Below are positions 4,548-51,843 of a stretch of 64,000 bases of DNA, piece by piece. This DNA is from a virus. Lineage: Duplodnaviria; Heunggongvirae; Uroviricota; Caudoviricetes. The DNA is taken from positions 42,581 through 106,580 of the IMG/VR virus record IMGVR_UViG_3300012344_000014; one strand, 5' to 3'. The notes beneath the pieces were generated by a model that searched no databases, was not told the origin of the DNA, and saw nothing but the letters and a program-made list of their open reading frames with translations. Every line of letters begins with the position of its first letter. Within the stretch, counting starts at the first letter, position 1. A program made the position numbers and the translations under genes.

Positions 4548-5759
4548 ATGCCTCAGACCACAATTGCAACTGAGATTGCGCGTATACAGACAGATAGAAA
4601 TACAATCAGAACAAAATAGGTCGACCTTGGCCTTGCAACTTCGACGGCGACGCTGGACGATTTAGCAGCCGCGATTGAGGGGATCGAAAACAGGGGCGCG
4701 GTCAACGCCAGTGTCACTGAAGGCAACACCTATACCATCCCGAAGGGTTATCACAACGGGAGCGGCACCGTCGCGGGCGTTGCGGGCGGCGGCAACTACA
4801 CGCTGCAGGCGAAGAGCATCACGCCCACAAAGAAGGGACAGAACGTCACTTCCGACGACGGGTATTACGGCCTGTCTGCTGTAACCGTCGCGGCGATCCC
4901 CGAAGCTTATCAGGACGTTTCGAGCACAACTGCTGCGGCCGGGAATGTCTTGGCTGGTAAAGTGTTCGTCACGGCGGCGGGCACAGTCACGACCGGTACG
5001 ATGGTCAATAACGGCGCGGTTGCAAAGACATTGGATGCATCGACGACCAGCTATACCGTTCCTGCCGGATACCACAGCGGCGCTGGAAAAGTGCAGATCG
5101 TGACGGAAACCAAGTCTGTCACGCCTGCGGAATCTGCGCAGGACGTCACGCCGACAACCGGTAAGGTGCTGAGCAAGGTAACCGTCGGCGCAATCCCGGC
5201 CAAGTACGCGGACGCGACCGACGTGAGTGTTACGGCCGATAAGCTGCTCAAGGACGAAACCGCAATCGGCTGGGACGCGGAGGCGGAGGCCCCTGTGGCC
5301 GTGACCGGCACCATGCCGAATAACGGGGCTATCTCAAAGACACTGGACACAACGACAGCCAGTTATACCATTGCGAAGGGCTATCACGACGGTACCGGCG
5401 TGATTAAGCTGGTAACGGAAACCAAGTCCGCTACCCCGACCGAATCCACGCAGACAATTTCCCCGACAGCCGGCAAAGTACTTTCGAGCGTCACTGTGAA
5501 TCGTATTCCGACCAAGTACAAGGACGCGACCGGCATGACCGCCACGGCGGCGGGGATGCTGGCGGATACGACGGCGATCGGCTGGGACGCCGCCAAGTCG
5601 CTCCCTGTTGTGCTGACCGGTACAATGGCAAATAATGGCAGCGTTACTACCACCATCGACGGCCTGACGACCACTTCGGTTTCTATCCCTGCCGGTTACA
5701 CGACTGGCGGAACTGTTTCTCTCACTGATGATATTTATACCGCTCTTGCGGCGATTTAA
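4548..5759 (+). CDS. tail protein with four tandem ~90-aa repeats; in-frame TAG at 4617-4619 read as sense
   Basis: ATG at 4548 (RBS aaggag). The sequence MPQTTIATEIARIQTDRNTIRTK-TAG-VDLGLATSTATLDD... runs in one frame into ORF 4950-5759. Repeats of '...TTSYT.P.GYH.G.G.V.IVTETKS.TP.ES.Q..PT.GKVLS.VTV..IP.KY'. Confidence 0.65.
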
Positions 5760-8789: not shown

Positions 8790-9608
8790 ATGATTTTCAA
8801 CAGAATGATCGGCGGCGGCGGGAAAGCGACGATAACATACAGCGGAACCCACACGACCGAAAGCTATACATTAAACGGGCAGACCTATACGTAGTATAAA
8901 ATTACCGGCTCGGGTACATTAACCGTCAAAGGCAAAGCGAAAGGCGTCAAGGTGTGGCTTTGCGGAGGTGGGGCAAACGGATTGGGTGGAGATGCTTCTG
9001 GTGGCGGGCGTGGCGGCGGCGGAGCGTTTTGTGCTCAGTATGACAGCCAAAAGTTATCCGGCGTATACACGATTGCAATCGCAAGTGGCGGTGGGAACAG
9101 CAGTATAACCACAAACGGGAACGTTGTTTTCTTAGCAAATGGAGCTAGCGGCGCGAACGGCGGCACGGGCGGCGGCGGCTCGGACGGCACTGGCGGCACG
9201 GGTGACGGAGTGACGAAGTATCCGTTCAGTGATTCCACCACTTTTCAATGTCATTGCGCGGGAGGCGGCGGCGGTTCAGGTAAGTATGTCACAAACTATG
9301 ATTGGGATAACTACACAGAATATTCTAATGTAGCTTACGCCGGGAATGGCGGTTCCAACGGCGCGGCAGGCGGTAAAGGCTCGTCACCCGTAACTTACAG
9401 CGCACGTAATGCTCCCGGAGGAAGCGTCGGCGGCGGAACCGGTGGCTCTAAGTCCGCGGGAAGCGCTGCGACGTTCTATGGGAGCGGTGGAGGTGGCGGC
9501 GGGAGCGAAGATTATTCCATTTCGCACGACCCCGGCTACGCAAACCGGAGTTACAGCGGCGGTTCCGGCTACCAAGGCATTGTATACTTACTCGTTCCAA
9601 TTGAATAA
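8790..9608 (+). CDS. glycine-rich protein, paralogue 2; in-frame TAG at 8892-8894 read as sense
   Basis: ATG at 8790 (RBS agggataaaggg). 'TLNGQTYT-TAG-YKITGSGTLTVKG...VWLCGGGANG' aligns across the TAG with paralogues 7677 (TYTQYTITGSG) and 12744 (TYDLYTLTGSG). C-terminus 'GSGYQGIVYLLVP'. Confidence 0.6.
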
Positions 9609-22066: not shown

Positions 22067-23308
22067 TCACCTCATAAACAGCGGGAAATTAAGGGCAAGA
22101 TCGCGAACGTCTTTCGCATAATCCGACGGGTTCGCGCCTTCAAGAATATCGGCGATTGTGTTAGCAATAAATTTTACTTCCGGCTCACGCATGCCGCGCG
22201 TCGTAATGGCGGGAGAGCCGATGCGGATACCGCTTGCCACGTTGGGGCTTAGCTTCTCGCCGGGAATGGTATTCTTGTTAACCGTGATATGACACGCGCC
22301 GAGAGCGGCCTCAATTTCCTTGCCTGTCTTGCCCGCATGGGAGACATTGAGCAGAAGCAGATGATTATCGGTGCCGCCGGTGACAAGACGGACGCCGCGT
22401 TCGGTAAGAACCCGCTCGAACGTCTTCGCGTTTTTTAGCACGTGCTTCTGATACTGCTTAAAGCCGGGTTCTAGCGCTTCCTTAAAGGCAATAGCTTTGG
22501 CTGCGATGATATGTTCCAAGGGGCCGCCCTGCAGGCGGGGGAACACCGCAAGATCAATCTGCCTGGCATACTCGGCTTTGCACAGAATCAACCCGGCGCG
22601 AGGACCGCGTAACGTTTTATGTGTGGTAGTCGTTACAAAATCAGCGTAGGGGACAGGAGAAGGATGAAGCCCCGTCGCGACCAGACCTGCGATATGCGCG
22701 ATATCGGCCAGAAGATAAGCGCCGACGCTATCGGCAATCTCGCGGAACTTTTTGAAATCGATCACACGGGAATAAGCGGAAGCGCCGCAGACGATGAGCT
22801 TCGGCCGATGCTGCTGAGCGAGGTCATAAACCCTGTCGTAGTCGATCAGGCCGGTTTCTTCATTAACCCCGTAGAGCACCGCGTCGTAAAGCCGACCGCC
22901 CTGGCCTTGCGGATTGCAATGGCTCAGGTGGCCGCCGCCGCTGAGCGACATCCCCAGCACCTTATCGCCCGGTTTGAGCACCGCAGCGTAGACGGCGTTG
23001 TTGGTCGTGGTGCCGCAATGCGGCTGCACATTAGCATGTTCGGCCCCGAAGAGCTGCTTCGCGCGCTCAATGGCCAGACGCTCGATTTCGTCAATATACT
23101 CACAACCGCCATAATAGCGCCTGCCGGGATACCCTTCGGCGTATTTACAGGTCAGAATAGAACCGGCCGCGGCCAGCACGGCGGGACTTGGATAATTCTC
23201 CGAGGCGATCAGTTCGATTCCGCCCGTCTGACGCAGATATTCTTTACGAATTAGGGCAGACACTTGCGGGTCAGTCTGCTCGATCGTTTCCAGTTCACTC
23301 AATTTCAT
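22067..23308 (-). CDS. glyA: serine hydroxymethyltransferase
   Basis: Full-length SHMT with the PLP-lysine motif '[13 protein letters not shown]'. Confidence 0.9.
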
Positions 23309-23492
23309 ATCCGTTTACAGGCATTTCCTTTCCGGCCGCAGACAGCGGCTCGTAGTTTTTTGCAGAACGCCAACACCATTGACGATTTTCATAGACGAGG
23401 AATTGCGGGTAGCCGTTCTTATCGTTACGAACAGCATAAACTTCGACGTTCCGGCCTGTGTGGAGCGCGGAAACAATGAAGGAGTTGGTCAT
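23295..23492 (-). CDS. hypothetical protein (65 aa)
   Basis: ORF track; ATGA-type coupling. Confidence 0.4.
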
Positions 23493-23731
23493 TCGACTCC
23501 GAGCGCCTCCGCTTCGCTATAGCCAGGCATCCCGCTGAAGCGTTCCATGACGGCGTCGCGCTGCGACTGACCTAGAAAGTGTTTCAGCAAATAGTCGCAA
23601 TACAGATTCAGGTTCTGACAGCGGACAAGCGTGTGCTCGTAATCTCGAACGAGCGTTTTATACCTCACCGCACAGCCGCCTTTTTTACAGGAGCAGACGC
23701 GTTTTACTTCGCCCATAATATTAACCTCCAA
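23489..23731 (-). CDS. hypothetical Cys-containing protein (80 aa)
   Basis: ORF track; RBS ggagg. Confidence 0.4.
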   Translation of the reverse strand: MEVNIMGEVKRVCSCKKGGCAVRYKTLVRDYEHTLVRCQNLNLYCDYLLKHFLGQSQRDAVMERFSGMPGYSEAEALGVE

Positions 23732-23897
23732 AGAAACCGCCCCAGAGGAGCAGGCCGACCATCATTCCTGTTCCTACAACCGACCCGATACAGCCGGCTG
23801 CTATTTTAGTCGGGTCTTTCTCTTTAAGAGCGTTTAGCAAATTCACAAGGAAAGAAAGCGAATACAGAATAATTACAATAATTTGAGGAGCACCCAT
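23724..23897 (-). CDS. small membrane protein (57 aa)
   Basis: RBS gaaagg then ATG. Two hydrophobic segments; below the ORF-track size threshold. Confidence 0.3.
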
Positions 23898-23901
23898 CAC
23901 A

Positions 23902-24378
23902 TCAAACCTTTCTATGTTGGAATTTATAAGTGATATTGGAGTAGTTCATTGCCATACCGTTTTTGCCGGATGACAGCAGCCACATGGACTGATTGGTGTT
24001 CGGTGAGTCGAGCCCACCGCGCTCTTCAATGTAGGGGCCGATTTTGTAGTAATCAACCCAGCACTGAAGGGAGAGATCGAACACCTGCGAGCCGGAATAG
24101 AGGCAGGTTTTAAGTCCCGCCTTCCGCACCGACATCAGGCATCGCGCCAGCGCGTCTCGGTCATTCCCCTCACCCATAAAGCAGACGCAGGTAATTCGGC
24201 CCGCATACTCCTTGAGTAAAGTTGGAAGATCGTGCTCAAGATCATAGCCGACATCCTGCTGCAGCTCCGGCGAGTGACAGCCGGGGCAGCGATGCGGGCA
24301 GTTTGAAACCTCCACCGCGAGACTGATTTCATCAGGGACTTCCTGCAGGACGACGCTGTAACCGGTGTATTTAATCAT
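23902..24378 (-). CDS. nrdG: anaerobic ribonucleotide reductase activating protein (radical SAM)
   Basis: 'CPHRCPGCHSPE' CxxxCxxC cluster. Start 'MIKYTG' overlaps the stop of the upstream gene (ATGATTAA). Confidence 0.8.
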   Translation of the reverse strand: MIKYTGYSVVLQEVPDEISLAVEVSNCPHRCPGCHSPELQQDVGYDLEHDLPTLLKEYAGRITCVCFMGEGNDRDALARCLMSVRKAGLKTCLYSGSQVFDLSLQCWVDYYKIGPYIEERGGLDSPNTNQSMWLLSSGKNGMAMNYSNITYKFQHRKV

Positions 24379-24556
24379 CGGCCGGTACCTGCACATAGAG
24401 GCCGCAGCAACATTCCTTTGTCGTCCGGAACGCAAGGCACGGACATTTGTTATCATCAGTCTTCTCGACCCGGCAGGGGCAATAGCCGTTGTTAGCGGCT
24501 ATTCTCCCCCTGAGCATCGCGACGAAATCCTTATCAGGATTCAGTTTGATTTTCAT
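24371..24556 (-). CDS. ferredoxin-thioredoxin reductase catalytic-subunit-like (FDR-like) small protein, copy 1
   Basis: 'GYCPCRVEKTDDNKCPCLAFRTTKECCCGLY' CPC...CPC...C.C motif. Paralogue of ORF 30201-30446. Confidence 0.5.
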   Translation of the reverse strand: MKIKLNPDKDFVAMLRGRIAANNGYCPCRVEKTDDNKCPCLAFRTTKECCCGLYVQVPADD

Positions 24557-26855
24557 ATTCCTGTCCACCGAAATACCTCCGGTCATATTCATTCTTGCGC
24601 TCGGCCGACCACTTCGACACGCGGGTCAGATAGCCGATGATGCGCGTGGCATAATCCAGATTTTCACTGCTGCACTTTGGGCACTTCTCCAGCTTGTGCT
24701 TGCTGATATACCCGCAGTCGTTGCAGATGGTATTGGGAACGTTGAAGGTAAAATACGAGCAGCCTTCATGAATCGCGTTGAGAATGAGCAGCTCGTACTG
24801 GCGAGCGGTGAGGTGTTCTTCGAGGTTGATATGGCAGGCGCTGCCGCCGTCGAGATTGCGGATATAACGATCGCCATGCAGCCGAATCTTATCAAGAACC
24901 GTTGTTTTAGGATCTTCAACCACGAAGAAATAGCTGTTATAACACGCTCTCGGGACGGAGAGCCCGTCGGCTTTATCCCATTTGGCGTTCTTCACGCCTA
25001 AGCTTTCGGCTGGCACGTACTCCGTGTTAAACATAACGCCCGGCTCGGCATCGGCCACGTTCCGCCGGTGAATCGTATCAAGGATGAGATCAGTGAACTC
25101 GCCGTAAGCCTTGTTGTCACCGACCGGAATGCCCAGATACTCCGCCGCCTCGACCAGACCGTTGATGCCAACGGTAAGATACTGCTTCTCCGGCGAAACG
25201 AACCCTGCGTCATAAAGCGGGATCATATGCTTGGCCTGCGCATCCTTCACCATCGCGTTATACGCTTTCAAATAGCGATGGACATGCGCGGTCAGATCGT
25301 CAAGCGAGGCTTTGACCTTGGCCAGATCGCCGCCGCAGCCCTGAACGAGCCGGTTGATATTGATGGTCATGACGCGCTTGGAGCCGGTCGCGATGCCGCC
25401 CGCGCCAAGGCTGTAAGTGAACTGGTTTTCAACGATGTTGTTTTTCAGGCGGCAGTTATGCGTAATTACTCCGGAGGGAAGCATGAAGTAGGGCTCGCAC
25501 CCATCATCAACCTCGAGGCAGTAAACATAATCGTATGTATTGGCGCTCTCGATCACCTCAGATACCGGGCGGTATGTATACATCCTGCTTTCGGGATCCC
25601 AACACTGGACTTCATCCCCCTCGACGAGCTCCTTCGCCTGGACGTCTCCGCGCCGGGTGGGGAAAAGATGGTTATCCGTCACCTCATACATATGGCGGGC
25701 GTTCGGCTTGACGTCGATTGTGATAAAATACATCTGACGGCCGGGGAGACGAATGAGAGTCGCGGGAACCACTTCCTCACCGAGCATAACCCGAACACGA
25801 AAATCCTGTTCCTGTTCAAGCATCTGGTAAAGACGCTCTGCAGCCCCGACAAGCAATGTGTTATGCTGGTCCCAGACGGAGAACAGTGTATCCGGCGCAA
25901 AGCAGCACGAACTCAAGCTATCCACGCTATCGCTGGTATAAGTGAAAAAACTGTGCCCTTCGGCATACATCTCGGCGATATGCTTCAGTGCCCGCTGGTC
26001 AACAGCCGTCTTGCCGTTGTTCAGGAGAGAGAACGTTTCGACCGGGAAGGTGATGATCTTGCGGAGCCGCTCCTGATTAAACCACTTCATAAACCGAACC
26101 TGCAGCCACCAGAGGGACTCCCAGAGATCGGTCATTACTGTGCCGTCCGGGAAGGCGAAACCTTCGAACAGCCCGCGGAAATACGGCTCATCAAAATAGG
26201 AAATATTCCAGAAGACGGCCTGATTGCCGCGCGCCGCCGCCGGTTGATTGACCGAGTAGACAACCTGCGCGAAGGTATCGGTGATCACGTTATCAATGGT
26301 GCGCTTGCGGCCGAACAGTTCGGCTTGCGTATCCGGCTTCAGATAATAATCTTCGCCGTATTCCTTGACGAGGAAATAGTTCATATAGGCGAGAAACTCC
26401 GGGGTGGCAATCGCGCCGAGCACCTGAGCGGAAGCGGCGAACACCAGATTGACAAACCCGCCGGCGAAACTTTGCAGCGTCTTGGGAGCGTCCGACGTGC
26501 CGCCCAGCCCCTTCAAGCCGTGCAAAAGAAACGGGTACATAGTGATGCTAGCGCAATAGATCTGCGGGGTCTGGCCGGTTTCATCATGGCAATAGACACG
26601 ATGGGTTTCGAGGTTATCAATGTAGCTGTCGGCCTCTTCCTCGCCGTACATGGCGGTGAGCATATCATGCATCATCAACCGGCTGGTATAGATGCGGCCG
26701 CGCTTACCGCTTTCGGACGCGAGGGTGGCCAGATTCTTTGAACTGACATTGGAGTTTGGATCATAGTCGCTGCTTTCGGCGGCGCATTTTTCATCCATAT
26801 AACGTCTGATGAAATTTGCTTCCGGACGATAGCGCGCATATTTGTCGGGGATCAT
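24534..26855 (-). CDS. nrdD: anaerobic ribonucleoside-triphosphate reductase (class III) containing a mini-intein
   Basis: Glycyl-radical motif 'RIIGYLTRV' and C-terminal Cys4 cluster. A ~150-aa Hint-only insertion is present. Confidence 0.9.
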   Translation of the reverse strand: MIPDKYARYRPEANFIRRYMDEKCAAESSDYDPNSNVSSKNLATLASESGKRGRIYTSRLMMHDMLTAMYGEEEADSYIDNLETHRVYCHDETGQTPQIYCASITMYPFLLHGLKGLGGTSDAPKTLQSFAGGFVNLVFAASAQVLGAIATPEFLAYMNYFLVKEYGEDYYLKPDTQAELFGRKRTIDNVITDTFAQVVYSVNQPAAARGNQAVFWNISYFDEPYFRGLFEGFAFPDGTVMTDLWESLWWLQVRFMKWFNQERLRKIITFPVETFSLLNNGKTAVDQRALKHIAEMYAEGHSFFTYTSDSVDSLSSCCFAPDTLFSVWDQHNTLLVGAAERLYQMLEQEQDFRVRVMLGEEVVPATLIRLPGRQMYFITIDVKPNARHMYEVTDNHLFPTRRGDVQAKELVEGDEVQCWDPESRMYTYRPVSEVIESANTYDYVYCLEVDDGCEPYFMLPSGVITHNCRLKNNIVENQFTYSLGAGGIATGSKRVMTININRLVQGCGGDLAKVKASLDDLTAHVHRYLKAYNAMVKDAQAKHMIPLYDAGFVSPEKQYLTVGINGLVEAAEYLGIPVGDNKAYGEFTDLILDTIHRRNVADAEPGVMFNTEYVPAESLGVKNAKWDKADGLSVPRACYNSYFFVVEDPKTTVLDKIRLHGDRYIRNLDGGSACHINLEEHLTARQYELLILNAIHEGCSYFTFNVPNTICNDCGYISKHKLEKCPKCSSENLDYATRIIGYLTRVSKWSAERKNEYDRRYFGGQEYENQTES
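25455..25904 (-). mobile_element. mini-intein (Hint domain, no endonuclease) inside nrdD
   Basis: N-terminal block 'C-FAPDTLFSV' after extein Cys; C-terminal block 'YVYCLEVDDGCEPYFMLPSGVITHN' followed by +1 Cys. About 150 aa. Confidence 0.7.
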
Positions 26856-27064
26856 TCAACAGATACTCCTTTGCTGAGATATTTCATGGCCTGCGCAAAG
26901 TTCATGAGATTGCCGTCCTTGTCTTCGAGGGCGGGGACAACCTGAATGCCTTTTGCCTTCAGCTGCTCCGCATCGGAAACAATATTGCATGGGATCTAAA
27001 GCTGCGCGAGCCGCTCGGCAAGCAGGTCGCACATGGGGCAGCCGGGAAGAGTATAAAGCGTCAT
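26852..27064 (-). CDS. nrdH: NrdH/glutaredoxin-like redoxin with in-frame TAG (26996-26998)
   Basis: MTLYTLPGCPMCDLLAERLAQL-TAG-IPCNIVSDAEQLKAKGIQVVPAL... has a CPMC active site and thioredoxin-fold pattern. TGA overlaps the nrdD ATG. No ORF>60 aa in the track because of the TAG. Confidence 0.65.
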
Positions 27065-27079
27065 TTCGGAATCAAACTC

Positions 27080-27125
27080 CTTTCATATAATAAAGGGAAC
27101 ATTTTCATGCCCCCTTTTTCACATT
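27080..27125 (-). promoter_or_regulatory. conserved ~40-nt promoter-like element, copy 1 of 3, upstream of nrdH-nrdD-nrdG
   Basis: Minus-strand reading gtgaaaaagggggcatGAAAATGTTCCCTTTATTATatg. Near-identical copies at 32550-32600 and 51770-51815. Confidence 0.5.
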
Positions 27126-27627
27126 TGAAAAATTTTATTTTGAATAAGCCACGCGACGCCTACCGCAACCGCATCAGATTCGTCGTCGCAGGCGTAACGC
27201 TGAGGGCCGACATAATCCTCAAGCATCTCGGCCACGCGGTCTTTCTCCGCATTGGCGTCGCCGGTGACGATGCGCTTGGTCATGCGAGGATCGATCTCTT
27301 CAAACTCTCTGCCTGTCAAATGCCAGGCATAAAGATCGGCCACGCCGACAACCTTATGCAAAACCCCGATGGTCTTCATCTGATAGCGGCCGGGGTAAAT
27401 CGCTTTCTCTCGAACCAATATGGCGTCCGGATAAGCGGTCATATATCGCTTCTATTCGCGCGCAATCTCCAGAAGCATCTGGCCATGCGTTTTCTTGCGG
27501 GCATACTTGTTGTTGACATTGCTGAGCTCGCGCACGGTGATCGTATTATTCTCACAATGAAGCAGCGCAAAGCCGGGGCGATGGAGCGAGAGATCGCAGG
27601 CGAAGACATCGACGGCGGTTTCAGGCA
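27119..27627 (-). CDS. ruvC: RuvC-like Holliday-junction resolvase with in-frame TAG (27452-27454)
   Basis: N-terminal 'VDVFACDLSLHRPGFALL' (RuvC 'ILGIDPG..TG' equivalent) lies in ORF 27452-27889; C-terminal 'ESDAVAVGVAWL' lies in ORF 27119-27442. Same frame, separated only by TAG. GTG start with RBS gagggga. Coordinates +/-3. Confidence 0.6.
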
Positions 27628-27977
27628 CAGGGCGTCCCCTCGCTTTCACGCGCCAGCTTATCCGTCTCATAGGCGAAGAGCGCGCGGACAATGGCGTGCG
27701 CCAGATGATCATCGCTGATATCGCCGGCAAGATAAGCGTACAGATGTTGGATGCAATGCCCGATATGCTCCTCGGGCGGGATTTTTGTATAGTTACGGCA
27801 GGCGAAGGTTTCGCCGTATTTCTCAGCACCGGCCTTCGCGACTTCAGCCGCGGCAAACATTGCATGCACGGGCAGAAGCTGGAAAGCATAAGGGCTGCGG
27901 CTTTGCTTGCCGCCTTCGCTGTTCACGACGACGGGGACGTCTTTACCGACCCCGAAGATTACATTATCGCCAAGCAT
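27621..27977 (-). CDS. hypothetical protein (118 aa)
   Basis: ORF track; coupled to downstream genes. No firm family assignment. Confidence 0.5.
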   Translation of the reverse strand: MLGDNVIFGVGKDVPVVVNSEGGKQSRSPYAFQLLPVHAMFAAAEVAKAGAEKYGETFACRNYTKIPPEEHIGHCIQHLYAYLAGDISDDHLAHAIVRALFAYETDKLARESEGTPCA

Positions 27978-27986
27978 TTTATCACC

Positions 27987-28709
27987 TCAGAAATCAATAA
28001 AATCATGATACAGAAAACGGGTGCGGGGCGGCACGCGGCGATCAAGATGCCAATGCCCGCAGAACCATTCAGGCTCGAGCGCGGCGGCGTCTACCTCGTC
28101 CATCCAGCGTTCCATGGTATAATCGGGAGGGCCTCCATAAATATTGGGAGCGCATCGATCCCACGGAATCATGCTCTGGGGGCAGGTATGGGAGAGGATA
28201 ACATCGGGGCGATGGACGCGCGCGGTTTCCAGAATAGAATCTCTTTCAGGTTTTGAAAGCTGCTCATCAGGGAACCAGCGATATTGCGGGAACCCCTGCG
28301 CCTGACGCTCGAGCCGGATAAACTTATCGATGCTGTAAGCGCCGCCGATCACCATGACGCTCGTGCCGCTGAAATCATACAGGCCGCCGTCTTTCGCATA
28401 GAGAATATTTGGAAACTCATCCTCGACGAGCACAGGGCCTGAAAGATAAGAACTGACATAGTCTTCCTCGCGGCAGACTTTGCGGCTGGGGCGCTGATCA
28501 TGGTTGCCGCGAACCATAAAGAACGTCAGCGGCAAAGCGGCGAGCTCGGCCTTGAGTTTTCTATCCCGCTTACCGCCAAAGTAATTCACCCCGTTATCGC
28601 CAAGCACAACCATGAGATCTCCGCCGGCGTCTTTGCCGACGTCGTGAGACTCGCAGAAGAGTTCGACGGAACTATAATCGCCGTGTTTATCGCCGGTAAG
28701 CCAGATCAT
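27987..28709 (-). CDS. metallophosphoesterase (calcineurin-like Ser/Thr phosphatase family)
   Basis: 'GDKHGD', 'GDNG', 'GNHD' motifs. ATG at 28709 overlaps the upstream TGA. Confidence 0.75.
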   Translation of the reverse strand: MIWLTGDKHGDYSSVELFCESHDVGKDAGGDLMVVLGDNGVNYFGGKRDRKLKAELAALPLTFFMVRGNHDQRPSRKVCREEDYVSSYLSGPVLVEDEFPNILYAKDGGLYDFSGTSVMVIGGAYSIDKFIRLERQAQGFPQYRWFPDEQLSKPERDSILETARVHRPDVILSHTCPQSMIPWDRCAPNIYGGPPDYTMERWMDEVDAAALEPEWFCGHWHLDRRVPPRTRFLYHDFIDF

Positions 28710-29071
28710 TGCGTGCTCCTTTTTAATCTCTGCCCGCATTGCGGGCAATATCGATCGGTTCGTTTAACTTCGTTGGGGCAGGCGGGGCAGCGCAGTGTAT
28801 GAAGCTTGCGCCGCCCATCATCCATGGTTTGTTCCAGCGGAGGGAGGGGATTATCCCGGTTCTTGCGCCATTCAACCAGCTCGCTGGCGGGAACCAGTCG
28901 GAACTCTCCGCTCTCCCAATCAAAGCCGAGATAACCATGGGAAACTTCGACGCCCGCCGGAGGCCCCAACGCGGGGAAGCCCAGGGAAATGAGGACTTCC
29001 ACCTTGTCAGGGTCACACAGCGTACCCGCAACCGCCTGGCGCACAGCTTCGTTTAGCTGAGAAAGCGTCAT
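28706..29071 (-). CDS. hypothetical protein with C-terminal zinc ribbon
   Basis: 'CPACPNEVKRTDRYCPQCG'. Confidence 0.5.
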   Translation of the reverse strand: MTLSQLNEAVRQAVAGTLCDPDKVEVLISLGFPALGPPAGVEVSHGYLGFDWESGEFRLVPASELVEWRKNRDNPLPPLEQTMDDGRRKLHTLRCPACPNEVKRTDRYCPQCGQRLKRSTQ

Positions 29072-29349
29072 CTGCGGGCATCGGCGAGCGTCACGTCATA
29101 AGCGACGTCGTCCGGGATCTCCAGCGAGAGAAGCATCTTGTAAAGAGCGGCGAAATAAGCGGCGCGCGTGCGGCCGGCGTTAATCGCCTGCTTCATCTCC
29201 TCGGGCAGGTTTTCCTTCGGTTTCGGGGATTCCTTCACTCCCTCCGGCTTTGCCGGTTTCTCCGTCTTCAGGGAAGAGTCTGTTTTCGGCTCCTCCTTCT
29301 CCGCAAGAAAGTTGAGCAGATCCCACAGTTCTTTCATTTCGTTTGCCAT
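29068..29349 (-). CDS. hypothetical protein
   Basis: Likely start MANEMKELW (RBS aaagga); ORF track 29068-29445. Confidence 0.4.
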   Translation of the reverse strand: MANEMKELWDLLNFLAEKEEPKTDSSLKTEKPAKPEGVKESPKPKENLPEEMKQAINAGRTRAAYFAALYKMLLSLEIPDDVAYDVTLADARR

Positions 29350-29691
29350 AATTTCGAATCCTTTCACCATATTTAATATCAATCCATGCGCGCAGGAACG
29401 TGCCTGCAACGCAGACCGTGACGGCCAGCACCCACGCGGCCACATAGGAAACCCAGTGCGTCAATATCCAGATGAGCGCGGTAAGTACCGCCGCCCCAAG
29501 AAAAACGCCAAGGAAATCAATCAACATCTACATTACATCACCACCTCGGAAGAGAATGATTATCATCGTCAGGGAAAAAATAGGCAAGCGCGATACCGGA
29601 AATAAGGAAGAGCGCCGCAGCCCATGGAGGCAGCCCTAATTCCGCAAACCGTCTATATACGACGCCTGCCATAAAACCAACTGTAAACATA

Positions 29692-30201
29692 TTACACCCC
29701 TGTGCTGCCAAATCCCCCGTTACGCACACCGGACGCAGTATCGTTCGCGGCCGTCAGATAAGGGAGGAAAATGCCCTGCATAAACTTCGCGCAGCCCGGC
29801 AGACGAACGGGCTCTTCGGCGGTGAGCTTGGCCTGAATATGCCCCTCATTAGACGAATAGTAATAATCGCTGTCGACGATCCCGGTGCTGTTGCGCAGGC
29901 GCAGGCCATATTTGAAACCGAGCCCGGATTTGGGAACGATCGCGAGGACTACGCCGGGCGGCATATGGCAGCGGATACCTGTCGGCAGAGTGAGCGGATA
30001 CTCGGGGAGGACTTCAATTTCATAGGGAAGGAAGAAATCATAGCCCGCCGAACCGGCCGTTGCGCGGCAGGGAAGCGGAATCGCCTCCCAGATCTTACGC
30101 GTTTCAGCCACGCCCAAAGGGGCGATTTGCCTTCCTTTTTCGAACGTCTCCCGGAACTCGTCAAAGGAAACCTTTTCAAAATAGATTTCGTCGGTATTCA
30201 T
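29692..30201 (-). CDS. dut: dUTP diphosphatase
   Basis: Motifs 'ATAGSAGYDF', 'IVDSDYY', 'RNGGFGSTG'. Confidence 0.85.
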   Translation of the reverse strand: MNTDEIYFEKVSFDEFRETFEKGRQIAPLGVAETRKIWEAIPLPCRATAGSAGYDFFLPYEIEVLPEYPLTLPTGIRCHMPPGVVLAIVPKSGLGFKYGLRLRNSTGIVDSDYYYSSNEGHIQAKLTAEEPVRLPGCAKFMQGIFLPYLTAANDTASGVRNGGFGSTGV

Positions 30202-30446
30202 CAGACATACCCCTCGTTTACAAATTCTTCATCCACGTTCGGATTGCGGATATACATGCCGCAGGCGCAATCGCCATGCTCGCGGAAGTCTTTACAGGGG
30301 CACTTCGTATCCTTCGTCTTTTCCCTCTTGCAGGGGCAGAAACCCGAGTTGGCCTTGATTCGTTTCCGAAGGTTCCAAAGAAATTCAGAGTCTGGATTCT
30401 TGATAAACCCATCAAGCATTCTTTTCCTCCCATGTGATATCATCAA
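30201..30446 (-). CDS. FTR/FDR-like catalytic-subunit-like small protein, copy 2
   Basis: 'GFCPCKREKTKDTKCPCKDFREHGDCACGMY'. Start probably at internal 'MLDGFIKNPD'. Confidence 0.5.
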   Translation of the reverse strand: MMISHGRKRMLDGFIKNPDSEFLWNLRKRIKANSGFCPCKREKTKDTKCPCKDFREHGDCACGMYIRNPNVDEEFVNEGYV

Positions 30447-31080
30447 AAATAACGGGAAACAGTTTCTGGAATTCGCAAAGCAACGGGCGCATGAGCGAGC
30501 GCATTTCCGGATAAGCGGCCGACGAGGTGCGCAGCTGAAAAATATGCCGCCATTCCCGCAGGTTTGCCTTCATGACGATGATGCAGGCGGTAGAATTGGG
30601 GAGCACCTTGCGCGCGTCTTCCGCCTTCATGCCGCACTCATACCTGAGATACCGGTAATAAGTTTCGGCATGCTCCATGGACGCATCCCAGCCGCGGGAA
30701 GCGCACCATGTTTTCGCATCCAGATCGGGGCCTTCGGCTGGAAGATAGATATCCGGCCGGATGAAGCTGATATCTCCGGTCTTATCATCTTCGACATAGC
30801 GCTGGCTCTGAACGCAGAAACTGGGGAGCCGGTGCCGTGTGATCTCGGCCAGGACATCGCGCCCGGTGACGAGCTCAACCATGGCGTCGCCAAACTCAAT
30901 AGGGGCTTCATGCCCCCGCTTTATAAGCCCGCCAAGAAACTTGCGCCAGCTATCGGCCGTGATTTTATCATGCGAGCGATAGCAATTACGGGCGGCGTAT
31001 TCGATAAGGCGCAGCGTTTCCAGTGCGCGCTCCGGCGTGGACGGCGAGAGAATCTTAAAAGACTGGTTAATTACCTTCAT
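30412..31080 (-). CDS. thyX: flavin-dependent thymidylate synthase
   Basis: ThyX motif 'RHRLPSFCVQSQRY'. RBS ggagga then ATG at 31080; the ORF track N-terminal extension is spurious. Confidence 0.85.
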   Translation of the reverse strand: MKVINQSFKILSPSTPERALETLRLIEYAARNCYRSHDKITADSWRKFLGGLIKRGHEAPIEFGDAMVELVTGRDVLAEITRHRLPSFCVQSQRYVEDDKTGDISFIRPDIYLPAEGPDLDAKTWCASRGWDASMEHAETYYRYLRYECGMKAEDARKVLPNSTACIIVMKANLREWRHIFQLRTSSAAYPEMRSLMRPLLCEFQKLFPVIFDDITWEEKNA

Positions 31081-31444
31081 CGAAGGTTGATTCCTCCTTT
31101 CCTTCTTCATTATTAATGAGGGAATCCGCCTCGACGCCGTCCGTGTTTTCAGGATCGGTTTCAGCGTATTCGCTATCCCGATCATAGAGGTTGCCGCGCA
31201 TATCGCCGTTGAGGCGCATGAGCAGCGTTTCAAACCGGAGAGAGGAGAGCATAACGGTGCCCTCGTTAAAGAGAATGACGGAGCGGATTTTGCGCCCGAC
31301 CGTCGCATCCAAGAGATGCTTACGGCCTTTGGCAGCTTTGACCTATTCTTTCGAAGTCATGGTGCGCGGGTTAAGAACGGCAATGACATGATTGGCGCAG
31401 ACGGCATGCTTCAGGCCAGCGTTGACAAAGCGCAGTTCTTCCAT
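31067..31444 (-). CDS. RemA/DUF370-like small regulatory protein with in-frame TAG (31343-31345)
   Basis: MEELRFVNAGLKHAVCANHVIAVLNPRTMTSKE-TAG-VKAAKGRKHLLDATVGRKIRSVILFNEGTVMLSSLRFETLL... aligns with B. subtilis RemA ([64 protein letters not shown]). TAG falls at RemA Met/Leu. Confidence 0.55.
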
Positions 31445-32527
31445 TTATTCTTCACCTCCAAGGAGATATTGTTCGAGGATGTCGGTAAGGTTTGCAAAAT
31501 TGAAGCCGGTGCCGCCGCCGAAATTGGGCATCAGCTGGCCGTTCCATTTTTCGATCATCTGCTGCTGGATTACAAGCTCGCTCAAGCCGGCCTTGCTGGC
31601 TTCCAATTCAGCCTTGGTGGCTTCGGCGGCATCCAGCCTGGCCTGCTTATCAGCCGCGGCACGGGTCTTGATCACATAGGCTTCGTTATCCACACGGATC
31701 TTTTCAGCCTCGGCGGACGCCTGTGCGTTGATCAGCGCGACAGCCTGATCGCTTTCCGCCTTGATGCGTTCCTGCTCGGCTTTCTGTTCGGCCTGTTTGA
31801 CGGCGACGTCGTATTCGGTTTGCGCGGAAATTTTTTCTTTCTGTTGGCGCAGTTCGGTGTTGGTGAGTTCAGCGCTGAGGCGGGCACGCTCCTCAAGAAT
31901 GGCAGTATACTCCGGCGTAAAATCGTACGTCTTCATGTTGACGCGGAGAATATTGATACCGTACGGTTTCGTGATCTCATCCAGCCGCTCGGCGATCTGC
32001 GCGGGAATTGCTTCCTTATTATTGACGATATCCTCGCTATCATAAAGGGAGAAGACCTGTTTGATAATCGCCAGAGCGTTGGACTCGACCAGGACACCGG
32101 TGTAATTCTTGCCATAGTTGGTATATACATCGTAAGACTTTTCCGGCGCGAGCTGATGCTGAATCTCGAACTCAAAGACAGGCACGAGCTGACGATCTTT
32201 TGTTTCGGCGGTATCAGACGTGGTCGGCTTCGAAGTGCCGCTGGCGATGCGCAGGGTTTGTACCTGATTAGAAATCAGATCAAGCGAATCGACAAACGGG
32301 ATTTTAAGAAACCAGCCTTCTGACACGCCTTCCTTCTGAACAACTCCCGCCCGACGCAGTACGCCGGTATGGTTATACGGAACGACTCCCACTGCGTTGA
32401 CGCTAAGTACAAGCACAAGAAGCGCGCAGGCGGCGATAAGAATTATTTTTTTGATACGTCGAGATCGGATGCGCTCACGCTCGGCGGCCATATCTTCCAC
32501 CGTTTTGCGCCAATTTCTTGTTTCCAT
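31445..32527 (-). CDS. SPFH/band-7 (prohibitin/HflKC-like) membrane protein
   Basis: N-terminal TM, SPFH core, and long coiled-coil C-terminus. Confidence 0.8.
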   Translation of the reverse strand: METRNWRKTVEDMAAERERIRSRRIKKIILIAACALLVLVLSVNAVGVVPYNHTGVLRRAGVVQKEGVSEGWFLKIPFVDSLDLISNQVQTLRIASGTSKPTTSDTAETKDRQLVPVFEFEIQHQLAPEKSYDVYTNYGKNYTGVLVESNALAIIKQVFSLYDSEDIVNNKEAIPAQIAERLDEITKPYGINILRVNMKTYDFTPEYTAILEERARLSAELTNTELRQQKEKISAQTEYDVAVKQAEQKAEQERIKAESDQAVALINAQASAEAEKIRVDNEAYVIKTRAAADKQARLDAAEATKAELEASKAGLSELVIQQQMIEKWNGQLMPNFGGGTGFNFANLTDILEQYLLGGEE

Positions 32528-32549
32528 AACAGAACCCCTTTCAAAATTT

Positions 32550-32600
32550 TCTTTTCATATAATAAAGGGAACATTTTTCACCCCGCTTTTTCAGTTTGAG
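32550..32600 (-). promoter_or_regulatory. conserved promoter-like element, copy 2, upstream of the SPFH operon
   Basis: Minus reading ctgaaaaagcggggtgaAAAATGTTCCCTTTATTATatg. Confidence 0.5.
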
Positions 32601-42201: not shown

Positions 42202-43064
42202 TTACACAGATAAATACCAGGCCATTACCTCTTCAGGCGAAGACCACAGATCGTTCGGCAAACCACGTTCGTCCCGCGCTTTCAACATCCGGTCGAACGC
42301 GCGAAGATACGCTTCTTCATATTTCGGATATCGTTCAAAATCGCGCTGGCGATTTTTTACGGAGCCCATCGGGCAACCGATACAGCCGAGCCGGCCATAG
42401 CCTTCATCATACAGACGGCAATGCGGAACCTGAACCACATCGTTCAGGAAAGACCAGACTTCCTCTGTCGACCAATCGATGATGGGGTTGACGAGCGTTT
42501 TCATGGTACGATAACAAACTTCCACCATACGGCGGGACGAATCGTTATCATCGTTCAGGATGATACCGCCCTTCGAGCCTTCATGGAAATCGATGCCGCG
42601 CGTTAACGCAATCCGTTTCGCCCTTGCGGGCTGCTGGAGGATTTCCACAGAGCCGTGCATGGCGGCGCGGCGAGGGCTTTCCGCCCAGCGGACGCCCGTT
42701 ATTGTAACACGCCCCTACCCGCCGGACTCTTTCAGATCGGCACAGCAATACCGCGCGCTCCGGGACGGCGGCTTGCCAACGGCGGGAATCAAATTCCACA
42801 TGGTGATCGGGTTTCCGGCCGCGTTATACGGGATTTCCCGCGCTACGTCAGGATAATGATCCCGAATGAAACGAACCAGTTCAGGCGGGTCCACGCTTGT
42901 GACGCGATAATGCGCATCAAATTTAACGCCGGCCATTTCGCACAGATGATAAACGCATTGAGAATCTTTGCCGCCGGAGAAGGCGACATAGTACCCCTCT
43001 TCGGGCTCGAAGGTACGCAGCTTCAGGAGCGCCGCGTCGATTTTTCTCTGATCGATCATCATCT
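42202..43064 (-). CDS. PAPS reductase-family (PP-loop ATP pyrophosphatase) protein with in-frame TAG (42715-42717)
   Basis: The N-half (ORF 42715-43116, 'AFSGGKDS' PP-loop) and C-half (ORF 42202-42660) are in the same frame, separated by one TAG: ...CADLKESGG-TAG-GRVTITGVRWAESPRRAAM... Start ATG overlaps the upstream TGA. Confidence 0.65.
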
Positions 43065-43931
43065 CTCCAATATCTCCTCGCAGAGGGGGCAGGAATTCAG
43101 CACGCCGCAGATCCACCGGCAGAAATACTTATCTTTATGCGGCCTCCAATCAAACTCAAAGAGAATTTTCTCGATCGTATCGACGACCCAGGCCATGGCG
43201 GCGTTATATGCGGCCGCGTCGAACGGTTCATCAATGAAGGTGCCATCCCGGAACATGTTGAAGCGCAGCCGGGCGGGGAAAACGCCGAATTTCTGCTTGA
43301 CAAACGCGGCGTAAACATAGAGCTGCTTGCGATAAGTATCCAGTTCCTTTTTCATGGAGCTCATGGACTTGGATTTATGATCGATGACCTCAATTTCGCC
43401 GGTTTCGCGATTTTTGAGCACCAAGTCGGCGATTCCAACGAAAGGATAACCGCCGATTTCAATTTCGAACCGCTCTTCAGCGGCCAGAATATCATATTGA
43501 TCACCGAAGCCGGAGAAAGTCTCGAAATATTCAAGGCCAGCGTCGTAATATTTCTGCGGCATGCCTTTGGGGAACGGGGGGAAGGAGTGCTGAAGCGCCT
43601 GATCATATCCTTCCTCATACTCGGACGCCATAAGAAAGTCGGGGAGCTCGCCCTTCGCCCATTTTTCCAGAATTTCATGACAGTGCGTACCGTATTCGGC
43701 GAAGGCGTTATTCTCATTGGGGACGCGATCGATATACTGGAGTTTATAAGCCAGAGGACATTGTTCAAAGGTTGCCAGACGGGAAAAAGACCACTTGGTT
43801 TCGGGAGGAATAGCGGCATCACCTCGATGGATATGGTATAATGGCTCTGCGCAGACAACGCCGAGCCAAGCCTTTATAAAAAGGAAGGTGTAACGACTGG
43901 ACACGGAGCGCCCTGCAAGGGGCGAAGGCAC
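43059..43931 (-). CDS. PD-(D/E)XK nuclease, Cas4/RecB-like, with C-terminal Cys cluster
   Basis: '...IADLVLKNRETGEIEVIDHKSK...QLYVY' nuclease core and 'CRWICGVLNSCPLC' Fe-S-like Cys cluster. Confidence 0.7.
   Translation of the reverse strand: MPSPLAGRSVSSRYTFLFIKAWLGVVCAEPLYHIHRGDAAIPPETKWSFSRLATFEQCPLAYKLQYIDRVPNENNAFAEYGTHCHEILEKWAKGELPDFLMASEYEEGYDQALQHSFPPFPKGMPQKYYDAGLEYFETFSGFGDQYDILAAEERFEIEIGGYPFVGIADLVLKNRETGEIEVIDHKSKSMSSMKKELDTYRKQLYVYAAFVKQKFGVFPARLRFNMFRDGTFIDEPFDAAAYNAAMAWVVDTIEKILFEFDWRPHKDKYFCRWICGVLNSCPLCEEILER
43825..43842 (+). promoter_or_regulatory. extended -10 promoter (TGgTATAAT) driving a structured ~190-nt leader and small ORF
   Basis: ggatatggtataatgg at 43831-43844. 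Confidence 0.45.
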
Positions 43932-51741: not shown

Positions 51742-51769
51742 GGTAAAATACCCCCTTCTCGAATTTTGT

Positions 51770-51815
51770 TTTTCAATAATAAAGGGAACATTTTCGGCAC
51801 CGTTTTTTCACTTTT
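51770..51815 (-). promoter_or_regulatory. conserved promoter-like element, copy 3, upstream of the Sak4-like operon
   Basis: Minus reading gtgaaaaaacggtgccGAAAATGTTCCCTTTATTATtga. Confidence 0.5.
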
Positions 51816-51843
51816 CGAAAATTTTCTTCGAAAAAATTTTTAT

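What the first reader, a model, noticed from the sequence alone, without database searches (positions are those of the whole stretch)
23902..27064. Thioredoxin-dependent class III RNR set: nrdH (CPMC, with TAG)-nrdD-nrdG plus two FTR/FDR-like CPC...CPC...C.C proteins
The operon order on the minus strand is conserved motif, nrdH, nrdD, FDR-like (24371-24556), nrdG. A second FDR-like copy (30201-30446) lies between thyX and dut. Some class III RNRs are reduced by an NrdH-like redoxin that is recharged by a ferredoxin:disulfide reductase related to the FTR catalytic subunit, instead of by formate. Those are the sulfate-reducer/methanogen-type systems. The set here matches that arrangement and is unusual for a phage, suggesting the phage carries its own reductant chain for anaerobic dNTP synthesis.
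Basis: partly seen in the sequence, partly recalled or inferred. Interest (0 to 1): 0.65.

Follow-up and report, generated by a model that had tools for sequence, protein, structure and literature searches.

The report
Phage anaerobic RNR with ferredoxin-linked reductant chain
This phage carries an oxygen-sensitive enzyme set for making DNA building blocks. The set comes with its own small redox protein and two tiny iron-sulfur-type reductases, which probably draw electrons from the host's ferredoxin; the module proves common in gut phages but has never been tested.

Summary
Four overlapping minus-strand genes encode a 70-aa glutaredoxin/NrdH-like redoxin (CPMC, in-frame TAG), NrdD, a 61-aa FTR-like protein and NrdG. 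A second FTR-like gene sits between thyX and dut.

NrdD carries the redoxin-type signature, not the formate type: βA Cys, S-C-C-R finger loop, active-site Glu, no Met. This makes it Thermotoga/Neisseria type (NrdD2), not methanogen NrdD3.

Both small proteins keep all six FTR cysteines. They pass the Pfam PF02943 cut-off, and a confident model matches only FDR/FTR catalytic folds.

The module is not unusual for a phage. At least 200 IMG/VR contigs and Clostridium phage c-st encode relatives, mostly ordered nrdH-nrdD-nrdG-FTR-dut. Cellular relatives in gut Clostridia sit beside a thioredoxin gene.

Best reading: host ferredoxin → mini-FTR → NrdH-like → NrdD disulfide. This is inferred from sequence and gene context, not shown biochemically.

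In-frame TAGs also occur inside other conserved genes. A related phage carries a tRNA-Leu-like amber suppressor, hinting that TAG is read as Leu.

The parts
27070..27140 (-). Promoter-like repeated motif upstream of nrdH-like. The same element lies upstream of the gene starting at 32527 and near 51789.
   Evidence: Exact 17-mer found twice plus one 3-mismatch copy, against 0.08 expected. About 60 nt align across the three copies.
26852..27064 (-). Small glutaredoxin/NrdH-like redoxin, 70 codons, CPMC active site, in-frame TAG at 26996-26998
   Evidence: In 35 phage relatives C9, C12 and P44 are invariant. A profile of these relatives hits Grx 7C10 (2e-9), NrdH 1R7H (1e-8) and MtH895 (2e-8). 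The TAG aligns with N/G/K/Q in relatives, and the downstream sequence stays conserved in frame.
24534..26855 (-). NrdD precursor (773 aa), class III RNR of redoxin (NrdD2/NrdDh) type. Key residues: C101, C317 | intein | C468-R469, E612, G741.
   Evidence: TIGR02827 6e-222. Full-length alignment to 4COI. Signature residues tallied.
25455..25904 (-). 150-aa mini-intein inserted between the two Cys of the S-C-C-R finger loop. Its +1 Cys corresponds to Tm C330 / T4 C290.
   Evidence: Splicing motifs present: CFAPDT...TDNHLF...VITHN|C. Intein-free relatives read SNCCRL. An 87%-identical relative, L295, has a ~385-aa LAGLIDADG intein at the same site with shared ends. Insertions at the same site occur in L006, L008, L027 and phage c-st.
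24371..24556 (-). Mini-FTR 1 (61 aa): FTR-catalytic-subunit/FDR-like protein, CPC-x9-CPC-x8-CCC
23902..24378 (-). NrdG activase (158 aa), radical-SAM CPHRCPGC motif
   Evidence: Best family TIGR02826 nrdG3, 4e-40 (137 bits, below the 151.7 cut-off). Its start overlaps the mini-FTR 1 stop.
30201..30419 (-). Mini-FTR 2 (72 aa), CPC-x9-CPC-x8-CAC, translationally coupled between thyX and dut
   Evidence: PF02943 23.5 bits. Best PDB sequence hit is 4TPU, M. acetivorans FDR, 0.005. Junctions shown. About 50% identical to copy 1; each copy is 63-66% identical to the single copy of the closest relatives L006-L008.
30412..31110 (-). thyX (flavin-dependent thymidylate synthase); the start codon is approximate
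   Evidence: Pfam Thy1 3e-39
29692..30201 (-). dut (dUTPase). The FTR-dut junction is the common one in related phages.
   Evidence: Pfam dUTPase 1e-12. The order ...G-F-dut occurs in 65 related loci.
22067..23308 (-). Serine hydroxymethyltransferase, downstream in the same gene string
   Evidence: Pfam SHMT 2e-158. The same D-F-G...SHMT order occurs in relative L294.

Best explanation
The cluster is a phage-borne anaerobic dNTP-synthesis module with its own electron supply.

Proposed sequence of events:
1. NrdD is made as a precursor. A 150-aa mini-intein must splice out to join the two adjacent finger-loop cysteines.
2. NrdG installs the glycyl radical using SAM.
3. Each turnover of this NrdD2-type enzyme oxidises a cysteine pair (βA Cys101 with a finger-loop Cys), with Glu as the proton source, instead of consuming formate.
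4. The 70-aa CPMC redoxin re-reduces that disulfide.
5. The 61-72-aa FTR-like proteins re-reduce the redoxin. They would do this as minimal [4Fe-4S] ferredoxin:disulfide reductases, taking electrons from the host's reduced ferredoxin, since no ferredoxin gene lies in the window.

What is shown: gene identities, active-site signature, cysteine pattern, fold, and conserved gene context. What is inferred: cluster binding, the electron path, the donor, and intein splicing.

The second copy, coupled to thyX and dut, most likely serves the same redoxin pool. It keeps the ancestral FTR-dut junction.
For: NrdD type:
- The βA Cys, SCCR, Glu and Gly are all conserved against T. maritima NrdD.
- For that closest solved homologue, formate gave no activity. 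A protein larger than 10 kDa from cell extract was needed, E. coli Trx could not substitute, and C329A/C330A mutants were inactive (PMC4493059).

FTR-like proteins:
- Six Cys aligned to FTR C55/57/74/76/85/87.
- PF02943 above the gathering score.

Gene context:
- Of 58 mini-FTR clusters (80% identity) from 167 loci, 46 sit with NrdD/NrdG.
- The order H-D-G-F(-dut) occurs in 81 loci, with a median F-G gap of 30 nt.
- About 85 of about 95 linked NrdDs carry Cys + [N/S]CCR + Glu.
- In cellular Clostridia genomes the same mini-FTR lies within 400 nt of a WCGPC thioredoxin in 33 of 36 cases. The family's recurrent partner is therefore a Trx-fold protein.

Precedent: a [4Fe-4S] FDR plus an NrdH-like protein deliver electrons to M. 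barkeri NrdD (Wei et al. 2015, cited in PMC9176816 and PMC6262447; details from my own knowledge).
Against: - No biochemistry exists for any member.
- The proteins are about half the size of FTRc. They lack its N- and C-terminal segments and any variable subunit or rubredoxin domain.
- The His of the FTR C-H-C motif is Cys (copy 1) or Ala (copy 2), although most relatives have CHC.
- No ferredoxin gene lies in the window.
- Ten of 58 clusters, and crAss001 gp5 (inside a tRNA array), have no RNR neighbour. The family is therefore not exclusively RNR-linked.
- In the Tm crystal structure the SCCR motif lies far from the active site (PMC4493059).
- The redoxin gene needs read-through of a TAG.
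Confidence: 0.6

Rival explanations
1. The mini-FTR is an electron carrier for NrdG. Its Fe-S cluster would reduce the radical-SAM [4Fe-4S] of the activase, replacing flavodoxin/ferredoxin, so that the glycyl radical can form. It would not act as a disulfide reductase for the redoxin.
For: The gene abuts or overlaps nrdG in most loci (median gap 30 nt; 75 of 100 gaps are 60 nt or less). In the window it overlaps both nrdD and nrdG.
Against: The two cysteines that form the redox-active disulfide in FTR (C57/C87 equivalents) are conserved along with the four cluster ligands. Cellular relatives pair with thioredoxin, not with a radical-SAM enzyme. A natural Grx-FDR fusion exists (7PWE). Where nrdG precedes nrdD (c-st, L009/L010), the mini-FTR follows nrdD rather than nrdG.
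Confidence: 0.15
2. The mini-FTR is a general phage redox-takeover factor. It would reduce host thioredoxins or other disulfides, and its place in nucleotide-metabolism operons would reflect co-expression rather than a dedicated RNR chain.
For: Homologues occur without RNR genes (crAss001 gp5 in a tRNA array, L011, L018). One homologue lies next to a class II RNR (L003). The window's second copy sits with thyX/dut rather than nrd genes.
Against: Forty-six of 58 clusters are linked to NrdD/NrdG, and nearly always to a phage-encoded NrdH-like redoxin and a redoxin-type NrdD.
Confidence: 0.12
3. The small Cys-rich proteins are not redox enzymes. They could be zinc-binding structural or regulatory proteins, or degenerate remnants, and NrdD would be reduced by the NrdH-like protein recharged by host thioredoxin reductase.
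For: They are very short. The catalytic His is missing in both window copies. Some relatives lack the second Cys of the first motif (CLS/CPS/CLN).
Against: All six Cys are kept in both window copies and in most of the family: four are invariant and the other two are at least 90% conserved among 88 aligned sequences. The fold match is specific. The family is large and conserved: 532 cluster representatives at E<=1e-10.
Confidence: 0.08
4. The nrdH-like ORF is a pseudogene killed by a TAG nonsense mutation, so the chain is broken in this phage.
For: There is a TAG at codon 23, no tRNA gene in the 64-kb window, and no close relative of this gene was found to compare.
Against: The reading frame and conserved residues (cis-Pro, Gly) continue after the TAG. 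In-frame TAGs also lie inside the RuvC domain, the PAPS-reductase domain and three tail-fibre-like genes. That fits recoding rather than decay.
Confidence: 0.05

Closest known systems
Methanosarcina barkeri class III RNR system (NrdD3 + NrdH-like + ferredoxin:disulfide reductase; Wei et al., Biochemistry 2015)
   Same: Class III RNR whose reducing equivalents come through a small Trx-fold protein in the nrd operon and a [4Fe-4S] FTRc-like disulfide reductase fed by ferredoxin. The FDR/FTRc fold and six-Cys motif are shared.
   Different: Here NrdD has the Glu and an SCCR loop (NrdD2/NrdDh), not the Glu-less QCCR/A NrdD3 (PMC9669993). The reductase is only 61-72 aa and is itself encoded in the operon, in two copies. 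The genes are in a bacteriophage of (probably) Clostridia, not an archaeon.
Thermotoga maritima / Neisseria bacilliformis NrdD (NrdD2, NrdDh; PDB 4COI/4U3E)
   Same: Closest solved homologue (E=8e-72). Same βA Cys, SCCR, Glu and C-terminal Zn ribbon/Gly motif. Formate-independent, protein-dependent reduction (PMC4493059).
   Different: Those enzymes are thought to use Trx/NADPH-TrxR (Nb), or an unidentified protein (Tm). The phage enzyme carries an intein in the SCCR motif and comes with a Grx-like redoxin and an FTR-like protein instead.
[quoted passage not shown]
   Same: CPC...CPC...CxC cysteines aligned. Core fold superposes at 1.9-2.4 Å over 56-57 of 61 residues.
   Different: No variable subunit, rubredoxin or fused Grx domain. 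The spacing between the first two motifs is 9 residues rather than 16. The CHC His is replaced by Cys/Ala in the window copies.
Clostridium botulinum phage c-st nrd cluster (CST074-CST078) and crAss001 gp5
   Same: c-st has Grx - NrdG-like - NrdD (with an insertion at the same Cys-Cys site) - FTR-like hypothetical protein - dUTPase. crAss001 gp5 is annotated 'putative ferredoxin-thioredoxin reductase'.
   Different: These are annotations only. PHROG 38239 lists the family as 'unknown function', and no paper in the searchable library links it to RNR. The window has the order H-D-F-G plus a second copy.
T4 / E. coli NrdD-NrdG (NrdD1)
   Same: Glycyl-radical class III RNR with a radical-SAM activase, common in phages.
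   Different: NrdD1 uses formate through an MGCR loop with Met. The window enzyme has SCCR + Glu and no Met.

Membership tests
Class III RNR, redoxin-dependent subtype NrdD2 (Wei 2014 definition as summarised in PMC4493059 / PMC9669993) | C-terminal glycyl-radical motif (RxxGY) and a four-Cys Zn ribbon | tested here: met
   RIIGYL aligns to Tm RIVGYL. CNDC...CPKC aligns to the Tm Zn site. Gly is conserved in all linked NrdDs.
Class III RNR, redoxin-dependent subtype NrdD2 | βA cysteine plus a third cysteine in the finger-loop motif (xCCR), with no Met at the motif start | tested here: met
   C101 corresponds to Tm C125. After intein removal, S316-C317-C318-R319 corresponds to Tm 328-SCCR-331.
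Class III RNR, redoxin-dependent subtype NrdD2 | Active-site glutamate (Tm E495 / Nb E438) | tested here: met
   FNTEYVPAE aligns to Tm FNIEQVPAE, so E462 (spliced numbering) corresponds to E495.
Class III RNR, redoxin-dependent subtype NrdD2 | Turnover supported by a thioredoxin-like protein and not by formate | not testable with these tools
   Requires an anaerobic enzyme assay.
Class III RNR subtype NrdD3 (methanogen type) | Third Cys present, but neither Glu nor Met (QCCR/A loop) | tested here: not met
   Glu is present and the loop is SCCR.
Class III RNR subtype NrdD1 (formate type) | Single-Cys MGCR finger loop with Met; no Glu | tested here: not met
   SCCR + Glu. Thr lies at the position of Tm Met356.
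NrdG activase (radical SAM) | CxxxCxxC cluster motif and a match to an NrdG family model | tested here: inconclusive
   CPHRCPGC is present. TIGR02826 is the best hit at 137 bits, below its 151.7 cut-off. The position next to NrdD is conserved in about 100 loci.
FTR catalytic subunit / ferredoxin:disulfide reductase (Pfam PF02943) | Six cysteines CPC...CPC...CxC (four cluster ligands plus a redox-active pair) | tested here: met
   Both copies have them, aligned to 1DJ7/4TPU. In 88 relatives four Cys are invariant and the other two are at least 90% conserved.
FTR catalytic subunit / ferredoxin:disulfide reductase (Pfam PF02943) | Score above the Pfam gathering threshold | tested here: met
   23.6 and 23.5 bits against 22. 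The margin is small.
FTR catalytic subunit / ferredoxin:disulfide reductase (Pfam PF02943) | FTRc core fold | tested here: met
FTR catalytic subunit / ferredoxin:disulfide reductase (Pfam PF02943) | His between the last two Cys (C-H-C, FTR His86) | tested here: not met
   CCC in copy 1 and CAC in copy 2. Most relatives have CHC. M. acetivorans FDR has CYC.
FTR catalytic subunit / ferredoxin:disulfide reductase (Pfam PF02943) | [4Fe-4S] binding and ferredoxin-dependent disulfide reduction | not testable with these tools
   Needs spectroscopy and an activity assay.
NrdH-redoxin (TIGR02194) | Family-model match and the C-V/M-Q-C active site | tested here: not met
   The window protein has CPMC and no TIGR02194 hit. 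Of 35 phage relatives, 27 give only weak hits, best 8e-7. It is a Grx/NrdH-like Trx-fold protein.
Intein (HINT domain) | Cys1, block-B TxxH, C-terminal HN followed by a +1 Cys, inserted in a conserved host-protein motif | tested here: met
   CFAPDT...TDNHLF...VITHN|C. Pfam Intein_splicing is only weak, E=0.058. However, an 87%-identical relative has a LAGLIDADG-containing intein with the same ends at the same site, and intein-free relatives read NCCRL.

The most novel reading that the evidence does not exclude
The roughly 60-aa proteins are the smallest self-sufficient ferredoxin:disulfide reductases known. Together with the phage NrdH-like redoxin they would be the physiological reductant of Thermotoga-type (NrdD2/NrdDh) class III RNRs, a component that PMC4493059 could not identify in T. 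maritima. Gut phages would then wire dNTP synthesis directly to the host's low-potential ferredoxin pool. The cellular mini-FTR-thioredoxin gene pairs would mark an unrecognised ferredoxin-dependent thioredoxin system in gut Clostridia. In this phage the chain may additionally be gated by an amber codon in the redoxin gene, read by a phage suppressor tRNA.
Probability: 0.35. Interest if true: 0.75.

Novelty: new variant of a known kind. Interest (0 to 1): 0.6.

Why it matters
A ferredoxin → FDR → NrdH route to class III RNR has been shown only once, for an archaeal NrdD3.

Here the same logic appears in a much smaller reductase. It is hard-wired into the operon of a bacterial-type NrdD2 and conserved across hundreds of gut phage genomes. 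That yields a compact four-protein system (about 60 + 70 + 620 + 160 aa) that could be reconstituted.

Such a reconstitution could do three things:
- Identify the missing protein reductant of Thermotoga-type NrdDs.
- Show how phages of strict anaerobes fund DNA synthesis from fermentation-derived reduced ferredoxin rather than from NADPH or formate.
- Assign a function to a large family (about 1,500 cluster representatives) that PHROGs lists as unknown, including its thioredoxin-linked cellular members.

Tried and rejected
- Megablast of 23000-31500 against 50,697 phage records found no match. The phage has no close sequenced relative.
- The two key Wei et al. papers (PMC4246965, PMC4697749) are not held. 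Subtype definitions were taken from PMC4493059, PMC9669993 and PMC9176816.
- The formate-type reading was rejected on the loop and Glu residues.
- The NrdD3 reading was rejected because Glu is present.
- An NrdR-box reading of the upstream motif was rejected because the same motif precedes non-RNR genes.
- A search for a phage-encoded ferredoxin or second thioredoxin by motif found none.
- A scan of metagenome contigs for relatives of the nrdH-like gene found nothing, so conservation of its TAG could not be tested.
- L294-L296 are close relatives, but the contigs stop before nrdH.
- L273 (89% tail-fibre match) is only a mosaic relative and was no use for other TAG sites.
- The tail-fibre-like gene 2630-3811 has no relatives in IMG/VR.
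- The L026 suppressor tRNA gave no hit in E. coli genomes at E<=0.01.
- A PurZ-type P-loop search, prompted by the MazZ-like domain, was negative.
- No paper for PDB 7PWE was found.


Full report
**What is there**

The window is a phage. Tail and tail-fibre genes lie on the plus strand (1-15 kb). A long minus-strand replication and nucleotide-metabolism block includes DNA polymerase, ligase, primase-helicase and integrase.

Within that block, four genes overlap one another head to tail:
- a 70-codon redoxin (27064..26852, CPMC);
- nrdD (26855..24534);
- a 61-aa Cys-rich gene (24556..24371);
- nrdG (24378..23902).

Further along the same strand lie SHMT (22067-23308) and, upstream, thyX (30412-~31110), a second Cys-rich gene (30419..30201) and dut (29692-30201), again with overlapping junctions. 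The Cys pattern C.C...C.C...C.C occurs only in these two ORFs in the whole six-frame translation.

**NrdD and its intein**

NrdD matches TIGR02827 (6e-222) in two pieces, with a gap at residues 318-467. That segment has the hallmarks of an intein: it starts CFAPDT, contains TDNHLF, and ends VITHN followed by Cys.

Removing it joins ...SLSSC to CRLKN..., giving S-C-C-R. Intein-free relatives read SNCCRL at the same place. An 87%-identical relative (L295) has a ~385-aa LAGLIDADG intein with the same termini at the same site. Phage c-st, L006, L008 and L027 also carry insertions there. The window therefore holds a mini-intein derived by loss of the homing endonuclease. Its +1 Cys is the cysteine that aligns with the T4 radical Cys290 (MGCR/SCCR alignment in PMC4493059).

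**Which kind of class III RNR**

The spliced protein aligns end to end with T. maritima NrdD (4COI, E=8e-72). Counting along that alignment:
- Tm C125 corresponds to C101.
- Tm S328-C329-C330-R331 corresponds to S-C-C-R.
- Tm E495 corresponds to the Glu of FNTEY.
- The Gly-radical and Zn-ribbon motifs are present.
- Thr replaces Tm Met356.

By the published definitions, NrdD1 has MGCR and uses formate. NrdD2 has a third Cys plus Glu and uses thioredoxin. NrdD3 has a third Cys without Glu, a QCCR/A loop, and uses an NrdH-like protein. This enzyme is NrdD2/NrdDh.

For the Tm enzyme, formate was inactive. A protein larger than 10 kDa from cell extract was required, E. coli Trx failed to substitute, and C329A/C330A mutants were dead. 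The physiological reductant of this subclass is therefore still open.

**The small Cys-rich proteins**

Both exceed the Pfam FeThRed_B gathering score (23.6 and 23.5 against 22). Both align their six cysteines with those of FTRc and of M. acetivorans FDR.

An HMM search of 1.84 billion representatives found 1,490 relatives at E<=1e-3. They are mostly 55-100 aa, with a fixed 9-residue spacer between the first two motifs.

The differences from FTRc are half the length, no partner subunit or extra domain, and Cys or Ala in place of the C-H-C histidine.

**The redoxin**

The window protein alone hits no family above threshold. A profile of 35 phage relatives hits a glutaredoxin (7C10), NrdH (1R7H) and MtH895 at 1e-8 to 1e-9, with the CxxC and cis-Pro invariant. 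It is NrdH-like, not a member of the NrdH family.

**Context in other genomes**

IMG/VR holds at least 200 contigs encoding relatives of the mini-FTR. GTDB species genomes hold 336.

Across the 167 loci fetched:
- The order nrdH-like, nrdD, nrdG, mini-FTR (then usually dut) occurs 81 times.
- The median gap between nrdG and mini-FTR is 30 nt.
- After clustering the mini-FTR at 80% identity, 46 of 58 clusters are linked to NrdD/NrdG.
- About 85 of about 95 linked NrdDs carry Cys + [N/S]CCR + Glu + Gly.

A separate, clearly cellular subfamily (for example in the Huintestinicola butyrica isolate genome) lies within 400 nt of a WCGPC thioredoxin in 33 of 36 cases. One variant sits next to an intein-bearing class II RNR.

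Among sequenced phages, c-st has Grx / NrdG-like / NrdD / FTR-like / dUTPase. crAss001 gp5 is annotated as a putative FTR but lies in a tRNA array. PHROG 38239 is labelled 'unknown function'. I found no paper that links these proteins to RNR.

**Mechanism**

The most economical reading is host ferredoxin → mini-FTR → CPMC redoxin → NrdD disulfide, with NrdG providing the radical. Its basis is:
- the active-site signature;
- the FDR fold and cysteines;
- the twofold recurrent partnership with Trx-fold proteins (phage NrdH-like, cellular Trx, and the natural Grx-FDR fusion);
- the M. barkeri precedent.

The main rival is that the mini-FTR feeds electrons to NrdG. Adjacency favours this, but the conserved redox-active Cys pair and the thioredoxin pairing of cellular relatives argue against it. 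I put about 0.6 on the main reading.

The window's arrangement (H-D-F-G plus F2 between thyX and dut) is rare. Each copy is 63-66% identical to the single copy of the nearest relatives L006-L008, which points to a lineage-specific duplication. F2 keeps the common F-dut junction.

**The TAG**

The TAG in the redoxin gene is one of several in-frame TAGs inside conserved genes:
- It lies within the RuvC domain, joining two standard-code ORFs (27119-27889).
- It lies within the PAPS-reductase domain, between RYCCADLKE and TGVRWAE.
- It occurs in three tail-fibre-like genes.

The phage therefore reads through TAG. At conserved sites homologues carry Leu or other hydrophobic residues, not Gln.

A related phage contig, L026, has nine in-frame TAGs in nrdD, nrdG, thyX and the mini-FTR, seven of them at Leu positions. 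It also encodes an 85-nt type-II tRNA(CUA) with A73, whose full-length matches are all annotated tRNA-Leu. This hints at TAG→Leu rather than code 15. It is only partly followed up and is not shown for the window itself, which has no tRNA gene in these 64 kb.

**Verdict**

It is a new variant of a known kind of system. It is untested biochemically, compact enough to reconstitute, and bears on an open question about the reductant of Thermotoga-type class III RNRs.

Noticed in passing
window 25455-25904 (-), inside nrdD: A 150-aa mini-intein splits the two adjacent finger-loop cysteines (SSC|C...HN|CRL). An 87%-identical relative (L295) has a ~385-aa LAGLIDADG intein at the same site, and phage c-st and several IMG/VR phages also have insertions there.
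   Followed up: yes
window 26996-26998, 27452-27454 region (RuvC-like 27119-27889), 42202-43116, 2630-3811, 4548-5759, 8790-9608: In-frame TAG codons lie inside conserved genes: the NrdH-like redoxin, the RuvC domain, the PAPS-reductase domain and three tail-fibre-like genes. No tRNA gene lies in the window. At conserved sites homologues have Leu/Ala/Met, Leu, or Met/Leu/Phe rather than Gln.
   Followed up: partly
L026:420-504 (+) and L026 nrdD/nrdG/thyX/mini-FTR (IMGVR_UViG_3300010163_000088): A related phage has nine in-frame TAGs in nrd/thyX/mini-FTR genes, seven at Leu positions including the near-invariant CG-L-Y. It also has an 85-nt type-II tRNA with anticodon CUA and A73. Nine of its eleven full-length blastn matches are annotated, all as tRNA-Leu. 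This suggests amber→Leu recoding. The phage-recoding papers checked do not contain the word leucine.
   Followed up: partly
L135:6001-6525 and about 36 other GTDB loci (L105-L167): Cellular Clostridia genomes carry a 65-aa mini-FTR (CPC/CMC/CHC) immediately next to a WCGPC thioredoxin gene. This may be an unrecognised ferredoxin-dependent thioredoxin system in gut anaerobes.
   Followed up: partly
L003:5921-6115; P0016, P0018, P0027, P0038, P0039: Mini-FTR variants lack the second Cys of the first motif (CLS, CPS, CLN, CPN, CPL). One lies beside an intein-bearing class II RNR. Their chemistry must differ from a two-Cys disulfide reductase.
   Followed up: no
window 27070-27140, 32540-32600, 51760-51830 (all minus strand): A promoter-like element of about 60 nt (AAAATTT...GTGAAAAAG.GG...GAAAATGTTCCCTTTATTATATGAAA) is repeated three times upstream of minus-strand gene starts. 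It does not fit the sigma-70 consensus scan.
   Followed up: partly
window 27621-27977 (-) and 27987-28748 (-): A MazZ-like dATP/dGTP diphosphohydrolase N-terminal domain (PF18909, 4e-16) lies next to a calcineurin-like phosphoesterase, between dut and nrdH. No PurZ-type P-loop motif was found in the window.
   Followed up: partly
L006, L007, L014 nrdD (after residue 465 of the spliced window NrdD): A second variable insertion site in NrdD of related phages (77 to about 288 aa) lies close to the active-site Glu region. The window NrdD has no insertion there.
   Followed up: no
window 22067-23308 (-): A full-length serine hydroxymethyltransferase lies in the same gene string as nrdDG, thyX and dut, and is conserved in relative L294. 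This suggests the phage also supplies methylene-THF for ThyX.
   Followed up: no
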